This document shows, in pieces, positions 171 through 11,501 of a DNA stretch of 11,804 nt. This DNA is from a bacterium (GTDB lineage: Bacteria > UBP7 > UBA6624 > JBBIMK01): NCBI GenBank assembly GCA_037444445.1, contig JBBIMK010000042.1, positions 1-11,804 on the forward strand, in the 5' to 3' direction. How positions within the stretch are numbered: the first letter of the stretch is position 1; the number at the start of each line of letters is the position of its first letter. Under the pieces are notes generated by a model. The model was given only the letters and a program-made list of their open reading frames with translations, ran no database searches and had not been told where the DNA came from. The position numbers and the translations under genes were made by a program.

Positions 171-445
171 CTACACCTCCTCTTCTTCAAAAAAATCTTC
201 AGGCGTTACAATTACAGGAATGGGAAGTCTTAATCGGGTGTTTACTTCTTGAATCATCTCTTGTGTCCCTCGTTTATAAAGATGCTTGAGATTCCAGGTA
301 ACCATAAAATTCATCCCCCCAAAGTTGCGACCGCCAGGTGCCGAGCCTCCATTCTCGGTAAGCGTCTATATGACAAATAAATATCTGCCAACTTCAGCAC
401 ATCTTCAGTAATTTCCAAAACCTTAAATATCCCCCTCCTGCCCAT
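171..445 (-). pseudogene. PIN-domain (VapC-like) toxin remnant, missing its N-terminal half and frameshifted
   Basis: Two consecutive minus-strand reading frames. Frame A (445..311): MGRRGIFKVLEITEDVLKLADIYLSYRRLPRMEARHLAVATLGG*. Frame B (314..171): MNFMVTWNLKHLYKRGTQEMIQEVNTRLRLPIPVIVTPEDFFEEEEV*. Joined, they resemble the C-terminal half of the VapC-like PIN family with the motif ..DALHIAIAT..GMDYLLTWNCKHI.....P.I.TPEEL. The frames switch in a run of 6 C (315-320, plus strand); one extra base would fuse them. The N-terminal ~75 aa of the fold is absent because the FHA gene ends at 449. The conserved acidic positions read EARH and MNFM. Confidence 0.55.
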
Positions 446-448
446 TCT

Positions 449-1198
449 TCATCCGCCTCCTTTCATAAAACTCAGGCGGGTTTTCCCGATTTCTATCACA
501 TCGCCTTCGTGGAGTTCCGCTTTCACGATTTCTTTTCCATTGACCCGGGTGCCGTTAGTGGAAGCCATATCGTAGAGGAGGAACAGGGTTCCCTCCCTCT
601 TGATTCGGGCGTGGAGGCCCGAGGCGAAGAAGTCGTGTAGCACCAGGTCGTTGGATTCATCCCGCCCGATGTTCAGCACCTCTTTATCCAGTGGTAAAAT
701 CTTGCCCTTGTCCTCTCCTTCCTTCACCAGCAGGTAAGGCAGGGCAGGCGTGGGAGGGGAGGGAGACTGGAAAACTCGGGTTTCCTTCATTACTGCGGGC
801 TTTTTGAGGTTCTCTATTTTAATATCCGGCGGGGGGGGCTGACGCCAGAGTTCATACCCGCAGTAAGGGCAGGCACGCCATTCCCTGTGCAGGCGTTTTC
901 CACAATCGGGGCAGAACTGTCCTCTCCCGGCGAGCCTCTCCAATGTCAGGGACCCCATCAGAAAGGAATACAGCCCTAAAACCACCACATATCCCGCCAC
1001 AGCCAGCAGCAATCCATACCAGGGGTTTTGTGTGAGATATCCACCCCACACTCCCATCAGGACAGGCACGCCGATGCTTCCTGTGAGGAGAATCCACTTC
1101 TCCACGGGTGAGCGGTCGGGGCTCGCCAGTAGAAAATAAGACACCGCTCCCACTATCCCCAAAAAAATCGCAACCGCCAGTATATATAAGGCTATCAT
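449..1198 (-). CDS. membrane-anchored zinc-ribbon / FHA domain-containing protein
   Basis: 249-aa ORF with three hydrophobic N-terminal segments (MIALYILAVAIFLGIVGAVSYFLLA; WILLTGSIGVPVLMGVWGGYL; WYGLLLAVAGYVVVLGLYSFLMG). These are followed by a CxxC-X11-CxxC zinc ribbon (CPDCGKRLHREWRACPYCG), a Pro-rich linker and a C-terminal FHA signature (LNIGRDESNDLVLHD..ASGLHARI.....LFLLYDMASTNGTRVNGKEI....L.EGDVIEIG). Confidence 0.85.
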   Translation of the reverse strand: MIALYILAVAIFLGIVGAVSYFLLASPDRSPVEKWILLTGSIGVPVLMGVWGGYLTQNPWYGLLLAVAGYVVVLGLYSFLMGSLTLERLAGRGQFCPDCGKRLHREWRACPYCGYELWRQPPPPDIKIENLKKPAVMKETRVFQSPSPPTPALPYLLVKEGEDKGKILPLDKEVLNIGRDESNDLVLHDFFASGLHARIKREGTLFLLYDMASTNGTRVNGKEIVKAELHEGDVIEIGKTRLSFMKGGG

Positions 1199-4844: not shown

Positions 4845-5951
4845 TTAGCCCAGACGCTTCTGGAAGCGGAAGGTGGCTACGCTGACCATCAGAATGCAGA
4901 AACCGACCAGGATGGCGATGGGTTCCAGGAGAGCGGACAACCGGGCGCCACGAATCACCAGTCCTCTTACCACAAGAATCGCATAAGTCATAGGTAAAAT
5001 GAGTGTAATCGGATACACGGGTTTGGGCATACTCTCCCGGGGGAACATAAAGCCAGAAAGAAGTATGGATGGAATCACCACCAGAATCGCCATCAAGATG
5101 GCTTGAAGTTGTGTTCTTGCTATGGTGGAAATCATCAAGCCCAGGGAGAGGGAAGTGATAATCCATACCGTCATCACGAACAGAAGGGCAGGAAGACTGC
5201 CCACGATGGGGATATGGAAAAGGTAGACCATCACCAGCAGGACGCTGCCTCCCTGAAGTAATCCTAAAACAAAGAAGGGCACTATTTTCCCCAGCATTAA
5301 GCCCAGCCGGCCGATGGGAGTTACAATGAGTTGTTCCAGCGTTCCCTCCGCTTTCTCCCGAACGATAGACAGAGAAGTGAGAATCATCAGGGGCAGGTGT
5401 AAGATGAGAACCACCAGGGCGGGGAGAAAGAAGGTGGAGGATTTGAGTTCCGGGTTAAACAGGATGCGTGAGCGTGCTACATATCGGGGTTGGAATTCCA
5501 CACCGACTCCATTCTTCTGTGCCAGTATTCCTGCCACCCCCTCCACCGTGCTTAACACATAGTTGGCAACGGTAGAGTCGCTGCCGTCCACCAGAACCTG
5601 GAAAGTAGCGGAGGCGTGCCCGGAAGACCCTGGCGTAAATCCGGGAGGAATGAGGATGGCTGCCTTCGCCTTTCCATCCCGGATGGCATCGTAAGCCATA
5701 GCATAGGAAAGTAGATAGCCCCGGATGTGGAAGACCCCCGTGTTGTTCAGGGCAACCACCAGCGACCGGCTGGCTTCATCCTGCCTCATATCCACAATCA
5801 CGGTGGGGACATTCTGCACATCGGTGCGTATGGCATAACCGAGGATAGCCAGTTGAAGAGTTGGAATTGCGATGGCAATGACGATGGTTACGGGGTCCCG
5901 ACGCAACTGCCGAAATTCTTTTCGTGTCATTGCCCAGAAGCCTCTGAGCAT
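4845..5951 (-). CDS. ABC-2 type transporter permease (YbhS/YbhR/YhhJ-like)
   Basis: 368-aa ORF. N-terminal MTRKEFRQLRRDP and TM1, a large extracytoplasmic loop, then 5 C-terminal TM helices, as in ABC-2 membrane proteins. AAGGAG lies 8 nt upstream. The start is 2 nt after the ATPase stop. Confidence 0.85.
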   Translation of the reverse strand: MLRGFWAMTRKEFRQLRRDPVTIVIAIAIPTLQLAILGYAIRTDVQNVPTVIVDMRQDEASRSLVVALNNTGVFHIRGYLLSYAMAYDAIRDGKAKAAILIPPGFTPGSSGHASATFQVLVDGSDSTVANYVLSTVEGVAGILAQKNGVGVEFQPRYVARSRILFNPELKSSTFFLPALVVLILHLPLMILTSLSIVREKAEGTLEQLIVTPIGRLGLMLGKIVPFFVLGLLQGGSVLLVMVYLFHIPIVGSLPALLFVMTVWIITSLSLGLMISTIARTQLQAILMAILVVIPSILLSGFMFPRESMPKPVYPITLILPMTYAILVVRGLVIRGARLSALLEPIAILVGFCILMVSVATFRFQKRLG

Positions 5952-5953
5952 AT

Positions 5954-6904
5954 TCAGGTGCTCCTTTCCTGTGAGGAGGTTAAGGCAATAAACACATCCT
6001 CCACAGTGGCACGGGAGGGAAGAACGAAGACTTCCAGCCCCAGATTCTGGTAGAGTTGCTGATTCAGGGAAGCATCATCCAGTTCACTCCGAACGAGCAT
6101 GTGAACGGTGTTTCCATATACAGTGGCGCGCAGGATGCCTTCCATACGGCGAAGGATATGCAGTTTTTCGCTGGCGCCAGCAAGATGGAAGTCTGCCCAT
6201 CGGGTGCCCGGCGGGGTGATTCCTGCCATCTGGGTGAGTTGCTCCGGGGGTCCCAGAGCCAGAAGGCGGGAGAAGTAGATATATCCCAGTCGTCCGCATC
6301 GCTCCGCTTCATCCATAGAGTGAGTCGTGATGAACAGGGTCTTCCCCTGTCCGGAGAGTTCAAACAGGATATTCCAGATTTCTGCTCGTGCCACGGGGTC
6401 TATGCCGGCAGTAGGCTCGTCCAGGAATAGCACCGGCGGGTCGTGCAGCAGCCCGCAGGCAAGGGACAAACGCATCTTCCAGCCCCCTGAAAGGCTGCCC
6501 GTAATCTGGCGAAGATACGGTGATAGGGATAGCCACTTCCCTATCTCATCCATTCGCTTCCGAAAGGGTCGTCCCTTCAAGCCGTAGAGATTACCGAAGA
6601 ACTCCAGATTTTCCTGCACCGTGAGGTCGGAATACAGGCTGAACCGCTGGGGGACATAACCGATGACCTGTTTGACCCTTTCCGATTGTCGCGTGCAATC
6701 GTAGTTCAGGACTCGGGCTTCTCCGCTGTTGGGCTCCAGCACTCCGCAGAGGATGCGAATCAGTGTGGACTTACCGCTTCCGTTGGGGCCTAAGAAGCCG
6801 AAAACCTCCCCCCGATGAACGCTTAAGGTTACATCGGAGAGTGCGGTGATGGGGCCGAAGGTGCGACACACATGCTCCGCTGAGATGGTGACTTCCGCAT
6901 TCAT
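5954..6904 (-). CDS. ABC transporter ATP-binding protein (single NBD, YbhF/CcmA-like)
   Basis: Walker A GPNGSGKST, Q-loop, signature LSGGWKMRL, Walker B VLFLDEPTAGID, H-loop TTHSM, plus a ~90-aa C-terminal extension. There is an ATGA start/stop overlap with the HlyD gene at 6901-6904. Confidence 0.92.
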   Translation of the reverse strand: MNAEVTISAEHVCRTFGPITALSDVTLSVHRGEVFGFLGPNGSGKSTLIRILCGVLEPNSGEARVLNYDCTRQSERVKQVIGYVPQRFSLYSDLTVQENLEFFGNLYGLKGRPFRKRMDEIGKWLSLSPYLRQITGSLSGGWKMRLSLACGLLHDPPVLFLDEPTAGIDPVARAEIWNILFELSGQGKTLFITTHSMDEAERCGRLGYIYFSRLLALGPPEQLTQMAGITPPGTRWADFHLAGASEKLHILRRMEGILRATVYGNTVHMLVRSELDDASLNQQLYQNLGLEVFVLPSRATVEDVFIALTSSQERST

Positions 6905-8022
6905 CGGAGCGGAAGGGAGGCGTTCACATTCATCCCCGCCCTGAGAACCGCCGGCGGGTTCACGGGGCGAGCCTTCACACGATACACTTGATTGATACGC
7001 TCCTCGGGGGTGTAGATATTTCGCGGGGTGAATTCTGCTTCCCGGCTGATGTAGAAGATTTCTGCCTCAAAAGGCTGGTGAGGATACGGGTCGGCAACGA
7101 TTCGGAGTCGTGTGCCTACTGCCAGTTTATTCAGGGCGCTCTCGGGCACAAAGAGTTCAATCCAGATGTCGGAGGTATTCAGGAAAAAGAGGACGGGCTG
7201 ACCCGGGGCGGCAATTTCGCCGGGCTGAATCAGCACCGTTTCTACGACGCCATCGTCGGGTGCGAAAATGGACAGGTCGGCAATGTCCAGTTCCAGACGC
7301 CTGATTTCCGCTTGAACCTGCCTGACCCGGGCTTCTGCGACGGCTAACTGGTTGGGCGTTGCCCCAGCCAGAAGCCGCTGAAGCACCGCTTTCCGGGCCG
7401 CCACCGAAGCCTCAGCGGCTTCAATCTCCTCCTTTCGCAAGCCAGCGGTCACCTTTGCCAGCCGCTCCCGGGCGGCGTCCAGTTGTGCCAGGAGGGCATC
7501 CCGTCTGGCGATGGCGGTATCCCGGTCGGAGGCGCTCACCGCTCCTTCCTCAAACAGGCGAAGCACCCTCTCCGCCCGCCTCTGTGCTTCCTCATATTGT
7601 GCCTGGAGGGCGGAGACCTCCTTTTCTGCTGCGGCAATGTCCTCTGCCCGGAAGCCTGATAGGGCCTGGCGGTATTGGGCTTCTGCCCCGGCGAGTTCAG
7701 CCCGTGCACGCTCAATTTCCTCCTTCGTGGCACCTGCTTTGAGGTCTAAAAACTGAGCCTCCGCCCCTGTTAGAGATTCCTCTAACACCGCCTTCTGAGC
7801 CCGGAGTTTAGAATCATCCAGCCGTGCCAGGATTTCCCCCTTCTTCGCCGTCTGTCCTTCCTTCACAAAAATCTCAACGACCGAGCCGCCCATCCGGCTT
7901 CCAAGGGCATATTCCTGCACTCTCACCATACCCGAGATTTCATACGCACCTGCACCGCAAGAAACGCTCCCATACACCAGAAAAATCCACACGCTAACCC
8001 GTATCGCCAGATGCTTTCCCAT
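6901..8022 (-). CDS. HlyD-family periplasmic adaptor / secretion protein (YbhG-like)
   Basis: This is the track ORF 6901..8280 trimmed to ATG 8022 (MGKHLAIRVSVWIFLVYGSVSC...), which follows GGAGAGAGGG. The upstream part of the ORF is antisense to the tRNA. It has a signal anchor, a lipoyl-like segment (VKEGQTAKKGEILARLDD), a long Ala/Glu/Arg-rich coiled coil, and a beta-barrel C-terminus (DIWIELFVPE). Confidence 0.85.
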   Translation of the reverse strand: MGKHLAIRVSVWIFLVYGSVSCGAGAYEISGMVRVQEYALGSRMGGSVVEIFVKEGQTAKKGEILARLDDSKLRAQKAVLEESLTGAEAQFLDLKAGATKEEIERARAELAGAEAQYRQALSGFRAEDIAAAEKEVSALQAQYEEAQRRAERVLRLFEEGAVSASDRDTAIARRDALLAQLDAARERLAKVTAGLRKEEIEAAEASVAARKAVLQRLLAGATPNQLAVAEARVRQVQAEIRRLELDIADLSIFAPDDGVVETVLIQPGEIAAPGQPVLFFLNTSDIWIELFVPESALNKLAVGTRLRIVADPYPHQPFEAEIFYISREAEFTPRNIYTPEERINQVYRVKARPVNPPAVLRAGMNVNASLPLR

Positions 8023-8097
8023 CCCTCTCTCCGCTCTCCTTTCGCAGAGTTTCCGCTTTTTTGAAAGAAACCGTTCCTGCCACCTGTGCCGATTACA

Positions 8098-8106
8098 ATC
8101 ATACCA
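8098..8106 (-). promoter_or_regulatory. extended -10 promoter element TGGTATGAT for the HlyD/ABC operon
   Basis: The minus strand reads TGG (8106-8104) TATGAT (8103-8098), about 75 nt upstream of ATG 8022. It is divergent from the tRNA-His promoter. Confidence 0.35.
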
Positions 8107-8131
8107 CCAACAATCTACGCACCCGAAACAT

Positions 8132-8158
8132 TTGAGAAGGAGCGACGGATGGTATAAT
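8132..8158 (+). promoter_or_regulatory. promoter of tRNA-His: -35 TTGAGA, 15-nt spacer, extended -10 TGGTATAAT
   Basis: TTGAGA at 8132-8137, TG at 8150-8151, TATAAT at 8153-8158. The tRNA G1 lies 13 nt downstream at 8172. Confidence 0.5.
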
Positions 8159-8171
8159 AATCTTGCTGAAT

Positions 8172-8244
8172 GCAGGCGTAGCTCAATGGTCAGAGCGCCT
8201 GACTGTGGATCAGGAGGTTGTGGGTTCGAGCCCCACCGCCTGTA
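8172..8244 (+). tRNA. tRNA-His (anticodon GTG), 73 nt, no encoded CCA and no encoded G-1
   Basis: Hand-folded cloverleaf. Acceptor GCAGGCG/CGCCTGT (G1-U72 wobble, then 6 Watson-Crick pairs), U8. D stem GCTC/GAGC with a GG-containing loop. Anticodon stem CCTGA/TCAGG with loop CTGTGGA (anticodon GTG at 8205-8207). 5-nt variable loop AGGTT. T stem GTGGG/CCCAC with loop TTCGAGC. Discriminator A at 8244, followed by TGG. Confidence 0.9.
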
Positions 8245-8249
8245 TGGGA

Positions 8250-9719
8250 ATGCCCGACAAAAATCGTCGGGTCGCAGCATTGAATAGAGGAGGAAATTCT
8301 ACGGGGAAAATCAGGGTCAGGCTATTGAAGGGGTTTCGGGATTATTTGCCGGAGCAGATGATTGCCCGCCAGCAGGTGCTGGAAAAGATTCGCCGGGTGT
8401 ACGAGCGATACGGCTTCATGCCCCTGGATACGCCCGCTTTAGAGCATGCCGAAGTCCTTCTGGGGAGATACGGAGAGGAATCGGATAAGCAGATTTACCG
8501 ATTTATCACGAAGGATGAGGAAGATGTGGCATTGCGGTTTGATTTAACCGTGCCTCTGGCTCGCGTGGTGGAGCAATATGCGGATTTACCTCTTCCGTTC
8601 AAGCGGTATCAACTGGCGGCAGTGTGGCGGGTGGATAAGCCGGACCCCGGACGGTTTCGGGAGTTTTTGCAGTTTGATGTGGACATCGTGGGGAGCGGGA
8701 GTATACTCGCGGATGCTGAAATTATCGCCGTGATGTGCGAAGCGATGGAAGAACTGGGCGTTCGCTATCAGGTCCGCTTCAGCAGTCGCAAGGTGTTGAA
8801 TCTGCTGGTGAAGTGGGCAAAGGTGCCGAACCCACTCACATTGCCCGTATTTCGTGTGCTGGATAAAATGGACCGCATCGGTTTTGAGGGCGTGGCGCAG
8901 GAACTCACCGGCGGTAGAGTGGATGCCTCCGGCGACCGCATCCCGGGACTGGGGCTTACCGGAGAGCAGGTGGATACCATTCAAAGATTCCTCCACATCC
9001 CGCATCAAACTCGTCAGGAAGCCATTACCGGGTTGAAAAACCTTTTCAATGGTGTGGAAGGAGCGGAGGTAGCCATTGGACAGTTAGAAGAACTCTCCGG
9101 GCACTTGAATGTGATGGGCATCCTGGAGGAGCAGGCACGAATTGACCCGGGGCTTGCGAGGGGGCTGGATTATTATACGGGCCCCATTTATGAGGCTTCT
9201 CTACTGGATGCGCCCGAGTTCGGCAGTGTGATAGGCGGAGGGCGGTATGATGAACTCATCCAGCGCAGAGGGGTTTTCATCCCTGCCACCGGCTCCTCTA
9301 TCGGTGTGGACCGCCTGATGTCCGCACTGGAGAAGATTCAGGGAAGAGCAAAGAAACGCTCCCCCGCTCAGGTGCTCGTTACGGTTATGAACCCTTCCTT
9401 CTTGCTGGAATATCAAAAAATAGCCCGGGAGTTGCGTAATGCCGGCATTCACACAGATTTGTATATGGGGCAGGAAAAAAACATCGGGAAGCAAATCCAG
9501 TTCGCCGACCTGCTGGGTATTCCCCTCGTGATTATCGCAGGAGAGGACGAGTTCTCTAAAGGCATCGTCTCGGTGAAAGACCTCAGCGCAGGGAGGGTAA
9601 AGAGCCGGGAAATCGCCAGCCGCCAGGCCTGGCTGAAGGAACGAGCCGGCCAGGTTTCCATCCCACGACCTCAACTCGTCCAGGAAATCCTCCGACTGCT
9701 CCGTGAGGCGAAGGGATGA
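8250..9719 (+). CDS. hisS: histidine--tRNA ligase (HisRS), divergent archaeal/eukaryote-like / Caulobacter-like type
   Basis: KGFRDYLP N-terminal motif, histidine-A LRFDLTVPLAR, motif 2 WRVDKPDPGRFREFLQFDVDIVG, motif 3 GGGRYDELI, histidine-B PATGSSIGVDRLM. The C-terminal anticodon-binding domain (VLVTVMNPS...GIPLVIIAGEDEFSKGIVSVKDL) rules out HisZ. The end at 9719 is firm. The start is uncertain: the track start 8163 overlaps the tRNA, and in-frame candidates are ATG 8244, ATG 8250, TTG 8280 and TTG 8325. Confidence 0.88.
   Translation: MPDKNRRVAALNRGGNSTGKIRVRLLKGFRDYLPEQMIARQQVLEKIRRVYERYGFMPLDTPALEHAEVLLGRYGEESDKQIYRFITKDEEDVALRFDLTVPLARVVEQYADLPLPFKRYQLAAVWRVDKPDPGRFREFLQFDVDIVGSGSILADAEIIAVMCEAMEELGVRYQVRFSSRKVLNLLVKWAKVPNPLTLPVFRVLDKMDRIGFEGVAQELTGGRVDASGDRIPGLGLTGEQVDTIQRFLHIPHQTRQEAITGLKNLFNGVEGAEVAIGQLEELSGHLNVMGILEEQARIDPGLARGLDYYTGPIYEASLLDAPEFGSVIGGGRYDELIQRRGVFIPATGSSIGVDRLMSALEKIQGRAKKRSPAQVLVTVMNPSFLLEYQKIARELRNAGIHTDLYMGQEKNIGKQIQFADLLGIPLVIIAGEDEFSKGIVSVKDLSAGRVKSREIASRQAWLKERAGQVSIPRPQLVQEILRLLREAKG
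8253..8271 (+). other. stem-loop in the tRNA 3' trailer / hisS 5' region
   Basis: CCCGAC (8253-8258) and GTCGGG (8266-8271) form a perfect 6-bp stem with a 7-nt loop AAAAATC. No U-tract follows, so it is not a canonical terminator. Confidence 0.35.
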
Positions 9720-9782: not shown

Positions 9783-11501
9783 ATGATGCGGGCGTATCCG
9801 GAGGAGATTCGCAAAGTGAGAGTGGATGGCCAGTCGTTGACCATCCCTCAGGTGGTGGCGGTGGCACGCAACCCGGCGGTGAAAATCCTCTGCCCGCCCC
9901 CTCGTCTGAATGCCCTGAAAAAAATGCATCTCAGGGTCATCCAGAAGTGTGAGGAAGCCTTTGACTTTTATACGCACACTCCTGACGATGAAAAACGGGG
10001 AGTTTTGATGCGGGAAAAATCCATTTACGGCGTCACCACAGGCTTCGGGGCTATGAAAAAAACCTATCTGAAATCCCTCAAAGATGCGGAAGCATTGCAG
10101 AAGCAATTGGTCATCAGCCATGCGGCGGGCGTGGGGGAGAAATTCACCATAGAAGAGGTTCGTGCCCTGATGCTGATTCGGATGAATACCTTGATGTCAG
10201 GGAAGTGTGGGGTTCGCCCGGAAGTGGTGGAACGCCTGCAAAAAATGCTCCAGATGGGCATACATCCTGAAATCCCGTCCCAGGGGTCGGTGGGCGCCAG
10301 CGGAGACCTGGCTCCTCTGTCTCACCTGGCTCTGGCTTTCATCGGGGAAGGAGAAGCCAGAGTGCAGGGTAAGGTTTATGCCGGCAGAGCCCTCCAAAAA
10401 AAATTCAAGAGCCTGGGCCTGGAGCCCACCTTCTCTCTGCAGGTGAAAGAGGGGTTAGCCCTGGTGAATGGCACTGCGGTGATGACAGCCATAGCCGCCC
10501 TGACTTGCTACGATGCGGAGCGTCTTTTACAATATGCCGACCTATCCGGCGCTATGACCTTAGAGGCGACCCTGGGCTCCACTCGCCCCTTTGACGAACT
10601 GGCGGAGAAAACCTTCGCAACGGGGGGACAGAAGGAATCCGCACGCCGGGTCAGGCATCTGATTCGGGGCAGTCAACTGGTGAACCGGAAAGAGGCAGTC
10701 CACGATGTCTATTCCATTCGCTGTATTCCCCAGGTTCACGGAACGGTGAGGGAAGCCCTTCGCTTCGCTCGCTTTCTGGTGGAAAAGGAACTGAATGCCA
10801 TCTCCGATGACCCCATCTTCTTCACAGAAGAAGAAATCCGCCAGCACCCACCCATAGATGGCTGGCTGACCCGCCTTCACTTTGAAGTGGGCAACTTCCA
10901 CGGTCAGATGGTCTCCCTAACTATGGACACTCTCGGCATTGCCCTGACCACCCTGGGAGCCATCTCGGAACGCAGAATTCAATTGCTATTAGACAAGAAT
11001 TTCAACGAGGGCTTGCCCCCGAATTTGATTCACAATCCAGAAGGGCTCTATTCCGGGCTGATGCTGGCGCAGTACACCGCCGCCTCCCTCGTTTCTGAGA
11101 ATAAAATTTTAGCCCATCCCGCCTCTGTGGATTCCATCCCTACCTCCGCCGGTATGGAGGATTATGTAAGTATGGGAACCATTTCCGCACGGAAAGCCCG
11201 AAAAATCTTAGAAAATGTGGAGCATATTCTCGCTATAGAACTCCTCTGTGCCTCTCAGGCTCTCTCCTTCCGAACGGGTGAACTGGATTGGAAGCCCCCG
11301 GACCCCGGTGCAGGAAAGACTATGGGGCAAGCGGGCCAGGGCACCACCACCGCCCTGAAAGCCATCCGAAAGGTGCTGCCACCTCTTATCGCTGACCGAA
11401 GGCTGGATGAAGACATCCACAAAATACGCCAGTGGATGCTCTCCACCCCACTCACCTCTTTTTTGGGGCCCTCTTCGCGAAGGAAGAGACAAAAGTTGTA
11501 G
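9783..11501 (+). CDS. hutH: histidine ammonia-lyase family (MIO-dependent aromatic amino acid lyase) protein
   Basis: 572-aa ORF with AGGTGA 9 nt upstream. MIO-forming Ala-Ser-Gly in SQGSVGASGDLAPLSHLAL, IYGVTTGFG, and LQKQLVISHAAGVG. The Ser-His at the substrate-selectivity position is as in histidine ammonia-lyases, versus His-Leu in TAL and Phe-Leu in PAL. The N-terminal pattern V.VDGQSLTIPQVVAVAR is typical for the family. Confidence 0.85.
   Translation: MMRAYPEEIRKVRVDGQSLTIPQVVAVARNPAVKILCPPPRLNALKKMHLRVIQKCEEAFDFYTHTPDDEKRGVLMREKSIYGVTTGFGAMKKTYLKSLKDAEALQKQLVISHAAGVGEKFTIEEVRALMLIRMNTLMSGKCGVRPEVVERLQKMLQMGIHPEIPSQGSVGASGDLAPLSHLALAFIGEGEARVQGKVYAGRALQKKFKSLGLEPTFSLQVKEGLALVNGTAVMTAIAALTCYDAERLLQYADLSGAMTLEATLGSTRPFDELAEKTFATGGQKESARRVRHLIRGSQLVNRKEAVHDVYSIRCIPQVHGTVREALRFARFLVEKELNAISDDPIFFTEEEIRQHPPIDGWLTRLHFEVGNFHGQMVSLTMDTLGIALTTLGAISERRIQLLLDKNFNEGLPPNLIHNPEGLYSGLMLAQYTAASLVSENKILAHPASVDSIPTSAGMEDYVSMGTISARKARKILENVEHILAIELLCASQALSFRTGELDWKPPDPGAGKTMGQAGQGTTTALKAIRKVLPPLIADRRLDEDIHKIRQWMLSTPLTSFLGPSSRRKRQKL

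What the first reader, a model, noticed from the sequence alone, without database searches (positions are those of the whole stretch)
8250..9719. HisRS of the divergent class that matches the G-1-less tRNA next to it
The motif-2 loop reads WRVDKPDPGRFREFLQFDVDIVG. Aligned by eye to the E. coli loop (..ERPQKGRYRQFHQ..), the Gln implicated in G-1/C73 recognition (Gln118 in E. coli numbering, quoted from memory) falls on an Asp. The overall pattern is archaeal/eukaryote-like (LRFDLTVPLAR, GRFREF.QFD.DIVG). The insertion domain contains GGRVDASGDRIPGLGLTGEQVD and the C-terminal tail contains RQAWLKERAGQVSIP. Both resemble, from memory, features of the ~500-aa alpha-proteobacterial HisRS that charges G-1-less tRNA-His. 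Enzyme and tRNA therefore look like a co-evolved, potentially orthogonal pair.
Basis: partly seen in the sequence, partly recalled or inferred. Interest (0 to 1): 0.62.

Follow-up and report, generated by a model that had tools for sequence, protein, structure and literature searches.

The report
G-1-independent HisRS beside its tRNA
This uncultured bacterium's only histidyl-tRNA synthetase is the rare type known from Caulobacter and Sinorhizobium that charges a histidine tRNA lacking the usual extra 5' G, and it sits directly behind that tRNA, showing that this altered decoding rule also exists outside the Alphaproteobacteria.

Summary
Window 8250-9719 encodes the genome's only HisRS. It lies 5 nt downstream of the genome's only tRNA-His, which has T at -1, G1:U72 and A73.

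- **Phylogeny.** With the trait columns removed, the enzyme falls in one clade (support 96/88) with the HisRS of Sinorhizobium, Methylobacterium, Paracoccus, Cereibacter and Ruegeria. All HisRS whose genomes have a C72/C73 tRNA-His lie outside that clade.
- **Shared enzyme features.** E. coli Gln118 is replaced, by Asp132 here and by Gly in the alphaproteobacteria. The Gly-Gly G-1 pocket is acidic (Asp89-Glu90). An insert in the insertion domain and an insert in the anticodon-binding domain are both present.
- **Rival routes to a -1 base.** No Thg1 was found, and T at -1 is the commonest -1 base among this genome's tRNA genes.
- **Lineage.** The seven other genomes of its small phylum have canonical HisRS, and the four whose tRNA-His was read have G-1/C73. 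Replacement by horizontal transfer is therefore likely.

The kind is known (Yuan 2011). The papers I could search ascribe it only to Alphaproteobacteria. This scan has already reported the same pair in at least eight other genomes. Charging and the mature 5' end remain untested.

The parts
8132..8161 (+). Promoter-like site upstream of the tRNA: TTGAGA-N18-AATAAT, overlapping an extended -10 TGGTATAAT at 8150-8158.
   Evidence: Consensus scan scores 10 of 12. GGTATAAT is conserved 12-14 nt upstream of the tRNA in the 95% and 80% relatives, although the sequence further upstream has diverged in the latter. Function is inferred, not shown.
8172..8244 (+). tRNA-His (GUG) of the G-1-less type: T at -1 (8171), G1:U72, C2:G71, A73, G37, 8-nt D-loop AAUGGUCA, no encoded CCA.
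   Evidence: Rfam tRNA 74.5 bits, ARAGORN, sequence read. It is the only tRNA-His among 44 tRNA genes of the genome.
8250..9719 (+). hisS, a 489-aa histidyl-tRNA synthetase of the G-1-independent clade. The start codon is uncertain: ATG 8250 or the conserved TTG 8325.
   Evidence: TIGR00442 363.7 bits. Only hisS in the genome. Clade placement. Start-codon comparison.
8514..8519 (+). Asp89-Glu90, at the position of the Gly-Gly dipeptide that forms the G-1 pocket in Thermus thermophilus HisRS.
   Evidence: Alignment. Tian 2015 (PMC4357726) reports two Asp at this site in Caulobacter HisRS that block the G-1 site.
8625..8693 (+). Motif-2 loop, residues 126-148. K130/P131/D132/P133 align with E. 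coli R116/P117/Q118/K119.
   Evidence: Alignment. The Gln118 position is Gly or Asp in every clade member shown in that alignment, and Gly (11), Glu or Lys in 13 more enzymes picked by tRNA type alone.
8910..8957 (+). Clade-specific insert in the insertion domain, GGRVDASGDRIPGLGL (residues 221-236), predicted as a beta-hairpin.
   Evidence: Shared with Sinorhizobium, Methylobacterium, Cereibacter and Paracoccus HisRS and absent from G-1-type long HisRS. Strands at 222-224 and 230-232 with block-mean pLDDT 86-95.
9591..9653 (+). Clade-specific insert in the anticodon-binding domain, GRVKSREIASRQAWLKERAGQ (residues 448-468), predicted as two short helices.
   Evidence: Present in all clade members and absent from all others, including the sister clade. 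It matches the unique anticodon-binding-domain insert that Yuan 2011 proposed as the basis of anticodon discrimination. Helices at 445-452 and 458-464.
9783..11501 (+). Histidine ammonia-lyase-like gene (572 aa) directly downstream, a conserved third member of the block.
   Evidence: PF00221 E 8.7e-160. NF006871 scores 526.3 bits against a cut-off of 524. The same position after hisS is seen in L141 and in 12 further loci of the non-alphaproteobacterial subclade, and in L140 after an inserted block of genes.

Best explanation
This is the housekeeping histidyl-tRNA synthetase of an uncultured bacterium from a very small, unnamed phylum. It belongs to the G-1-independent HisRS clade so far characterised only in Caulobacter and Sinorhizobium-type Alphaproteobacteria.

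Inferred mechanism, none of it assayed here:
- The tRNA and hisS are transcribed together from the promoter at about 8132-8161.
- RNase P cuts between U-1 and G1, giving a tRNA-His with a normal 7-bp acceptor stem and no extra 5' nucleotide.
- The 3' end is trimmed and CCA is added.
- The enzyme cannot hold a -1 base, because the pocket is acidic and Gln118 is lost. It identifies its tRNA by G1:U72 and A73 through the altered motif-2 loop, and by the GUG anticodon through the extra helices in the anticodon-binding domain.

The pair was probably acquired horizontally as a linked tRNA-hisS(-hutH) block that replaced the canonical system in this lineage.
For: - **Sole copies.** The genome, 93.8% complete, has one hisS and one tRNA-His.
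- **tRNA features.** T at -1, G1:U72, A73.
- **Tree.** IQ-TREE with motif-2 and both inserts removed gives a clade of 25 rows with support 96/88. It holds five alphaproteobacterial HisRS plus the window and 19 others. All 21 rows with C72/C73 tRNA-His lie on the other side of one branch with support 99/95 (quick tree of 98 rows).
- **Shared enzyme characters.** Gln118 replaced, R116 to K, acidic G-1 pocket, two inserts.
- **Covariation in named genomes.** Among 80 named loci, every genome with a HisRS at least 44% identical whose tRNA-His was found has A73: U72 in all but one, which has C72. For one such genome no tRNA-His was found. Every genome at or below 43% whose tRNA-His was found has a C72/C73 tRNA-His. 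Two of the lower-identity loci (L033 and L035) also carry an atypical tRNA-His gene next to hisS.
- **Prospective test.** Fourteen genomes chosen only by a U72/A73 tRNA-His all carry this HisRS type. None of the 13 extracted has Gln at the 118 position.
- **Processing enzymes.** Thg1 and Thg1C were not found. RNase P RNA and the CCA-adding enzyme family are present.
- **The -1 base.** The Sinorhizobium meliloti and Methylobacterium genes also have T at -1. For Sinorhizobium, a mature tRNA with no extra 5' nucleotide is on my own recollection of Wang 2007, which was not held. The papers I read state only that tRNA-His of this alphaproteobacterial group lacks G-1.
- **Biochemistry of the type.** Yuan 2011, PMC3064791.
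- **Phylum contrast.** The other 7 genomes of the phylum have canonical HisRS, and the four whose tRNA-His was read have G-1/C73.
Against: - Nothing was assayed. The mature 5' end and the charging rules are inferred from homology at 36-42% identity to the studied enzymes.
- The association of tRNA type with enzyme features amounts to one evolutionary event on the tree, so it shows clade membership rather than repeated co-evolution.
- U-1 could pair with A73. T at -1 is conserved in 22 of 24 such genes, against about 44% for all tRNAs of this genome.
- The D-loop has 8 nt, not the 9 nt with U20a described for the alphaproteobacterial tRNAs.
- The residue at the Gln118 position is Asp, not Gly.
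- The window is a short contig (11.8 kb) of a metagenome bin.
Confidence: 0.85

Rival explanations
1. The enzyme still needs a -1 nucleotide. Either U-1 is kept because RNase P cuts one position upstream on a U-1:A73 extended stem, or a G is added after transcription opposite A73, as in eukaryotes.
For: U-1 and A73 can pair, and ARAGORN extends the gene by one base on each side. T at -1 occurs in 22 of 24 genes of this tRNA type. One relative (L022) has G at -1 opposite A73.
Against: No Thg1 or Thg1C was found in the genome. T is also the commonest -1 base of all tRNA genes here, about 19 of 43. By established knowledge it is the base RNase P prefers. S. meliloti has the same T at -1. From memory of Wang 2007, which was not held, its mature tRNA has no extra nucleotide. 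The pocket glycines are replaced by Asp-Glu. In Caulobacter, adding G-1 made the tRNA a fivefold worse substrate.
Confidence: 0.05
2. It is simply a long, archaeal/eukaryote-like bacterial HisRS that uses G-1/C73 like most of that class, and its position next to an odd tRNA-His is coincidental.
For: Many long HisRS at 36-43% identity go with C72/C73 tRNA-His. The best solved-structure matches are long-type enzymes such as human HARS.
Against: It lies inside the G-1-independent clade, not with those enzymes. It lacks Gln118 and the pocket glycines. No G-1/C73 tRNA-His exists in the assembly for it to charge. The tRNA-hisS adjacency is conserved in relatives and in 9 of 14 independently chosen genomes.
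Confidence: 0.03
3. The contig is a binning error from another organism, so the 'sole hisS, sole tRNA-His' argument and the contrast with the rest of the phylum do not apply to this genome.
For: The contig is 11.8 kb with GC about 55% against 50.8% for the genome. The nearest relatives are known only as short metagenome contigs.
Against: Estimated contamination is 0.03%. Without this contig the 93.8%-complete bin would lack both essential genes.

Even if the contig were misbinned, the identity of the enzyme and tRNA would stand. Only the horizontal-transfer inference would weaken.
Confidence: 0.05

Closest known systems
G-1-less tRNA-His with divergent HisRS of the Rhizobiales, Rhodobacterales, Caulobacterales and Hyphomonadaceae group of Alphaproteobacteria (Caulobacter crescentus, Sinorhizobium meliloti; Yuan 2011 PMC3064791; Wang 2007 and Ardell & Andersson 2006 as cited there)
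   Same: Same HisRS clade (support 96/88). Gln118 is lost, R116 is K, the G-1 pocket is acidic, and the same two inserts are present. The tRNA has no G at -1, G1:U72, C2:G71, A73 and G37. It is the sole pair in the genome.
   Different: The host is not an alphaproteobacterium. The enzyme sits in the sister subclade, with Acidobacteriota, Planctomycetota, Ignavibacteriota, Bacteroidota and Zixibacteria, at only 36-42% identity to the alphaproteobacterial enzymes. It has Asp rather than Gly at the Gln118 position. The D-loop has 8 nt with C, not 9 nt with U20a. The tRNA is fused into one unit with hisS and a histidine ammonia-lyase-like gene. In the three alphaproteobacterial loci whose annotation covers this stretch, hisS is not preceded by the tRNA. 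In two of them it is followed by hisZ.
Canonical bacterial HisRS with G-1:C73 tRNA-His (E. coli; Thermus thermophilus complex, Tian 2015 PMC4357726)
   Same: Same class IIa fold, catalytic motifs and GUG anticodon. The RNase P RNA in the genome is of the ordinary type A.
   Different: Identity to E. coli HisS is only about 23%. The major identity element G-1:C73 is absent from the tRNA, and the residues that accommodate it are replaced. The enzyme is about 65 residues longer.
Long 'archaeal/eukaryote-like' bacterial HisRS that keep G-1/C73 (for example Planctomycetota, Chloroflexota, Clostridia; solved structures 6nhi and 3net)
   Same: Same RFDLTVPL and GRFREFxQxD sequence style and overall length class.
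   Different: They keep Gln at the 118 position and Gly in the pocket loop. They lack both inserts. Their genomes have C72/C73 tRNA-His.
G-1-independent HisRS of the protists Acanthamoeba castellanii and Trypanosoma brucei (Rao 2013, 2015; cited in PMC9976931)
   Same: They charge a tRNA-His without G-1 in organisms that lack Thg1.
   Different: They are eukaryotic lineages and were not placed in my tree, so no shared inserts were tested. I treat this as a functional analogy only.

Membership tests
G-1-less tRNA-His / G-1-independent HisRS pair (Caulobacter type) | The tRNA-His gene has no G at -1. | tested here: met
   T at 8171. The same holds in the 95% and 80% relatives.
G-1-less tRNA-His / G-1-independent HisRS pair (Caulobacter type) | A73 discriminator and a G1:U72 pair. 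U72 is the major acceptor-stem determinant in Yuan 2011. | tested here: met
   The acceptor strands are GCAGGCG and CGCCUGU, followed by A73. S. meliloti and Methylobacterium show the same ending.
G-1-less tRNA-His / G-1-independent HisRS pair (Caulobacter type) | 9-nt D-loop with an extra U20a. | tested here: not met
   The D-loop is AAUGGUCA, 8 nt, with C after G19-U20. The 80% relative has 9 nt. Deleting 20a cost only twofold in Caulobacter.
G-1-less tRNA-His / G-1-independent HisRS pair (Caulobacter type) | The motif-2 loop lacks the Gln (E. coli Gln118) that reads G-1:C73. The alphaproteobacterial group has Gly there. | tested here: met
   Asp132 aligns with Gln118. The Gln is absent as required, but the residue is Asp rather than Gly.
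G-1-less tRNA-His / G-1-independent HisRS pair (Caulobacter type) | The Gly-Gly dipeptide of the G-1 pocket is replaced by acidic residues (Tian 2015). | tested here: met
   Asp89-Glu90 occupy that position.
G-1-less tRNA-His / G-1-independent HisRS pair (Caulobacter type) | A unique insert in the anticodon-binding domain, and an insert in the insertion domain. | tested here: met
   Residues 448-468 and 221-236 align with the inserts of S. meliloti, Methylobacterium, Cereibacter and Paracoccus. The inserts are absent from all other rows.
G-1-less tRNA-His / G-1-independent HisRS pair (Caulobacter type) | Phylogenetic placement with the characterised enzymes. | tested here: met
   One clade with support 96/88, computed with the trait columns excluded.
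G-1-less tRNA-His / G-1-independent HisRS pair (Caulobacter type) | The mature tRNA-His starts at G1. | not testable with these tools
The evidence is indirect only: no Thg1 was found.
G-1-less tRNA-His / G-1-independent HisRS pair (Caulobacter type) | Charging is independent of G-1, depends on U72 and the anticodon, and does not accept E. coli tRNA-His. | not testable with these tools
   This needs an in vitro aminoacylation assay.
G-1-less tRNA-His / G-1-independent HisRS pair (Caulobacter type) | The host belongs to the alphaproteobacterial group to which the literature restricts the trait. | tested here: not met
   The genome's phylum holds only 8 species genomes. The 7 others have canonical HisRS, and the four whose tRNA-His was read have G-1/C73. 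The best named uS3 hits reach only about 54% identity.
Canonical bacterial G-1:C73 histidine identity system | Encoded G-1 paired with C73, with Gln118 and the pocket glycines in HisRS. | tested here: not met
   T at -1 and A73. Asp132 and Asp89-Glu90.

The most novel reading that the evidence does not exclude
The tRNA-His, hisS and histidine ammonia-lyase-like genes form a self-sufficient, horizontally mobile block that can swap a cell's histidine identity rule in one step. Such a block replaced the canonical G-1 system in this lineage. The alphaproteobacterial system, long treated as a unique synapomorphy that arose once inside that class, is then just one branch of a wider clade spread over many phyla, and may itself have been imported.
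Probability: 0.45. Interest if true: 0.65.

Novelty: new member of a known kind. Interest (0 to 1): 0.48.

Why it matters
The extra G-1 of tRNA-His is one of the most conserved tRNA identity marks. Its loss has been described as a single event in one alphaproteobacterial group, and has even been used as a phylogenetic marker for placing SAR11 (PMC3937112).

This locus, with its relatives in Acidobacteriota, Planctomycetota, Ignavibacteriota, Bacteroidota and Zixibacteria, shows that the same enzyme clade and tRNA type occur well outside that class. They often form one physically linked unit, which is the arrangement that would let an identity rule move between genomes.

It also provides new natural pairs that are probably orthogonal to the E. 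coli pair. Such pairs are of practical interest for genetic-code engineering. Caulobacter HisRS works poorly in E. coli (PMC7590224).

Tried and rejected
- **Covariance model.** The model of tRNA-His (R1) scored all tRNAs highly and often ranked another tRNA first. I replaced it with an IUPAC pattern running from U8 to N73. That pattern misses tRNA-His genes with unusual D-arms, so 29 tree rows have no tRNA label.
- **Primary papers not held.** Ardell & Andersson 2006 and Wang 2007 were not in the library. Their content is taken from papers that cite them.
- **Literature search for non-alphaproteobacterial reports.** One query was swamped by 'g-1' used as a unit. Targeted searches found only alphaproteobacterial and protist cases.
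- **Naming the phylum.** A uS3 search gave only unclassified MAGs at 58-66% and Thermodesulfobacteria at about 54%. An earlier scan note calling the organism an Ignavibacteria relative is not supported by this.
- **tRNA body similarity as a test of co-transfer.** The window tRNA is least like those of its class-mates (64-67%), but it is as close to some canonical tRNAs (83-88%) as to G-1-less ones (71-90%). The result is inconclusive.
- **Structure.** The AlphaFold model was used only for secondary structure and confidence. No fold search was run because it could not discriminate between the hypotheses.
Full report
**What is there.** The window is a whole 11.8-kb contig of a 2.07-Mb metagenome bin (93.8% complete, 0.03% contamination). 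On the + strand, a promoter-like site lies at 8132-8161, with an extended -10 TGGTATAAT at 8150-8158. It is followed by a tRNA-His (GUG) at 8172-8244 (Rfam 74.5 bits). Five bases later comes an ORF at 8250-9719 encoding a 489-aa HisRS (TIGR00442 363.7 bits against a cut-off of 286.75; PF13393 plus PF03129). After 63 bases comes a histidine ammonia-lyase-like gene at 9783-11501. The genome has one tRNA-His among 44 tRNA genes and one hisS.

**The tRNA.** Position -1 is T. The acceptor stem is G1:U72, C2:G71, A3:U70, followed by A73. G37 is present and CCA is not encoded. This is the acceptor end that Yuan et al. 2011 describe for the alphaproteobacterial G-1-less tRNA-His, in which U72, A73 and the anticodon are the identity elements. 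The D-loop differs: it has 8 nt rather than 9 nt with U20a.

**The enzyme against E. coli and Thermus.**
- Alignment with E. coli K-12 HisS puts R116/P117/Q118/K119 on K130/P131/D132/P133.
- Tian et al. 2015 showed that a Gly-Gly dipeptide from the other subunit forms the G-1 pocket. They noted that Caulobacter has two Asp at that site. The window has Asp89-Glu90 there.

**Is it the Caulobacter type or just a long HisRS?** This was the key question, because the long, archaeal/eukaryote-like class is broad.
- *Sampling.* I collected 80 named hisS loci from species-representative genomes. I added six from unnamed relatives and five alphaproteobacterial genes found in the plasmid collection: Sinorhizobium meliloti, Methylobacterium, Paracoccus, Cereibacter and Ruegeria. 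E. coli and other canonical enzymes served as outgroups. I read the tRNA-His of each genome with a pattern spanning U8 to N73.
- *Tree.* A quick tree of 98 rows and a careful tree of 59 rows agree. The careful tree had the motif-2 loop and both inserts removed.
  - Its other branch is a 19-row subclade (93/87) with the window, Zixibacteria, Chitinophagales, Ignavibacteriota, Planctomycetota and Acidobacteriota.
  - Every labelled row inside the clade has A73: U72 in all but one, which has C72.
  - All 21 rows with C72/C73 lie on the other side of a 99/95 branch.
- *The long class is not diagnostic.* Long HisRS at 36-43% identity from Planctomycetota, Chloroflexota, Clostridia and others keep G-1/C73. 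The long class alone therefore says nothing about G-1 use; the subclade does.

**Shared derived characters.** The clade, and only the clade, has these features:
- Gly or Asp instead of Gln118.
- Lys instead of Arg116, with one exception.
- An acidic pocket loop.
- An insert of about 12 residues, GRxDxSGDxxxGxGL, in the insertion domain (window 221-236).
- An insert of about 20 residues in the anticodon-binding domain (window 448-468).

The last matches the insert that Yuan et al. called unique among class IIa anticodon-binding domains and proposed as the basis of anticodon discrimination. The model (mean pLDDT 79.8) predicts it as two short helices between the last two strands of that domain. 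It predicts the first insert as a confident beta-hairpin.

**A prospective check.** In 400 further genomes at least 90% complete, the U72/A73 tRNA-His pattern matched in 16, spread over 13 families. I took 14 of these, chosen by tRNA alone. All carry a HisRS 39-51% identical to the window's enzyme, and in most the match runs through the C-terminal insert.

| Feature in the 13 enzymes extracted | Count |
|---|---|
| Residue at the Gln118 position | Gly 11, Glu 1, Lys 1; never Gln |
| Lys at the Arg116 position | 13 of 13 |
| Both inserts present | 12 of 13 |

The tRNA gene lies next to hisS in 9 of the 14 genomes. On the tree, though, the whole association is one evolutionary change. It shows clade membership, not repeated co-evolution.

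**Could a -1 nucleotide still be present?**
- Thg1 and Thg1C were not found in the genome.
- T at -1 is striking, in 22 of 24 genes of this tRNA type, and it could pair with A73.
- T is also the commonest -1 base of all tRNA genes in this genome, about 19 of 43. By established knowledge it is the base bacterial RNase P prefers.
- The S. meliloti gene has the same T. From memory of Wang 2007, which was not held, its mature tRNA was shown to have no extra nucleotide; the papers I read say only that this group's tRNA-His lacks G-1.
- RNase P RNA of type A and CCA-adding enzymes are present.

I rate retention or addition of a -1 base at about 5%.

**Origin.**
- The genome's phylum contains only 8 species genomes. 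The 7 others have canonical HisRS of about 420 aa, and in the four where I read it, a G-1/G1:C72/C73/CCA tRNA-His. Replacement by horizontal transfer in this lineage is the economical reading.
- The 95% and 80% relatives keep the same promoter box, tRNA and hisS.
- The lyase gene follows hisS here and in both close relatives. In the 95% relative an inserted block of genes lies between them. It also follows hisS in 12 further loci of the non-alphaproteobacterial subclade. Among the loci outside the G-1-independent clade, only L035 of the sister clade has such a gene within 3 kb.
- Similarity of the tRNA body does not settle whether the tRNA came in together with the enzyme.

[quoted passage not shown] The kind is therefore known. 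This locus is a new member in a new phylum and in a sister subclade. The scan itself has already reported the same pair in at least eight other genomes, including Zixibacteria, Acidimicrobiales, a Bacteroidales-like genome, Hydrogenedentota and Patescibacteria (CPR). Within the scan it is therefore a repeat observation.

**Open points.**
- *Start codon.* ATG 8250 is TTG in the 95% relative. In the 80% relative an in-frame TAG overlaps the tRNA end, and no canonical start follows until the TTG that corresponds to 8325. A GAGG box 7-8 nt before an in-frame ACG (8301) is conserved in all three.
- *Untested functions.* Charging specificity, the mature 5' end and co-transcription are all untested.

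Noticed in passing
window 9783-11501; L015-L023, L025-L027, L140, L141: A histidine ammonia-lyase-like gene follows hisS in 15 of about 19 loci of the non-alphaproteobacterial subclade that have enough flank (4 phyla). Among the loci outside the G-1-independent clade, only L035 of the sister clade has one within 3 kb. tRNA-His, hisS and hutH look like a conserved three-gene unit. Urocanase lies elsewhere in this genome (contig C38).
   Followed up: partly
L033 4386-4462, L035 4417-4494; second copies at G050:C124 and G052:C26: The sister clade of the G-1-independent HisRS comprises Patescibacteria (CPR), a Lutibacter MAG and a 0.8-Mb 'Gammaproteobacteria' MAG. It keeps Gln at the 118 position and lacks the anticodon-domain insert. 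Two of its genomes have, next to hisS, a tRNA-His with T at -1, G1:C72 and C73 or A73. They also have a second, canonical G-1/C73 tRNA-His elsewhere. This may be an intermediate or accessory identity system.
   Followed up: partly
L027 (uncultured Planctomycetales); tRNA at G044:C151:6310-6376: Inside the G-1-independent clade, one genome has a tRNA-His with G1:C72, A73 and A at -1. Its motif-2 loop reads DNPGRGRF, with Lys130 changed to Asn and Pro133 changed to Arg. This may be a secondary co-change of tRNA and enzyme.
   Followed up: no
window 8250-8345: The annotated ATG start of hisS is not conserved in relatives. A GAGG box followed 7-8 nt later by an in-frame ACG (8301) is conserved in all three genomes, as is the TTG at 8325. 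The first 23 residues are predicted to be disordered.
   Followed up: partly
L140 7512-10288: In the 95% relative, about 2.7 kb with an AAA_15/DUF4276 gene pair and a PhdYeFM-like antitoxin gene is inserted between hisS and the lyase gene. It looks like a small defence or toxin-antitoxin island.
   Followed up: no
window 6901-8280 (- strand): The longest ORF of the upstream HlyD-family gene overlaps the tRNA-His, so its real start must lie further in. The relative's gene call is 376 aa against 459 aa here. It heads a divergent ABC-2 exporter operon at 4845-8100.
   Followed up: no
L022 2897-2971: One Thermoanaerobaculia relative has G at -1 opposite A73 on an otherwise G-1-less-type tRNA-His (G1:U72). 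This is the eukaryote-like arrangement and may be chance.
   Followed up: no
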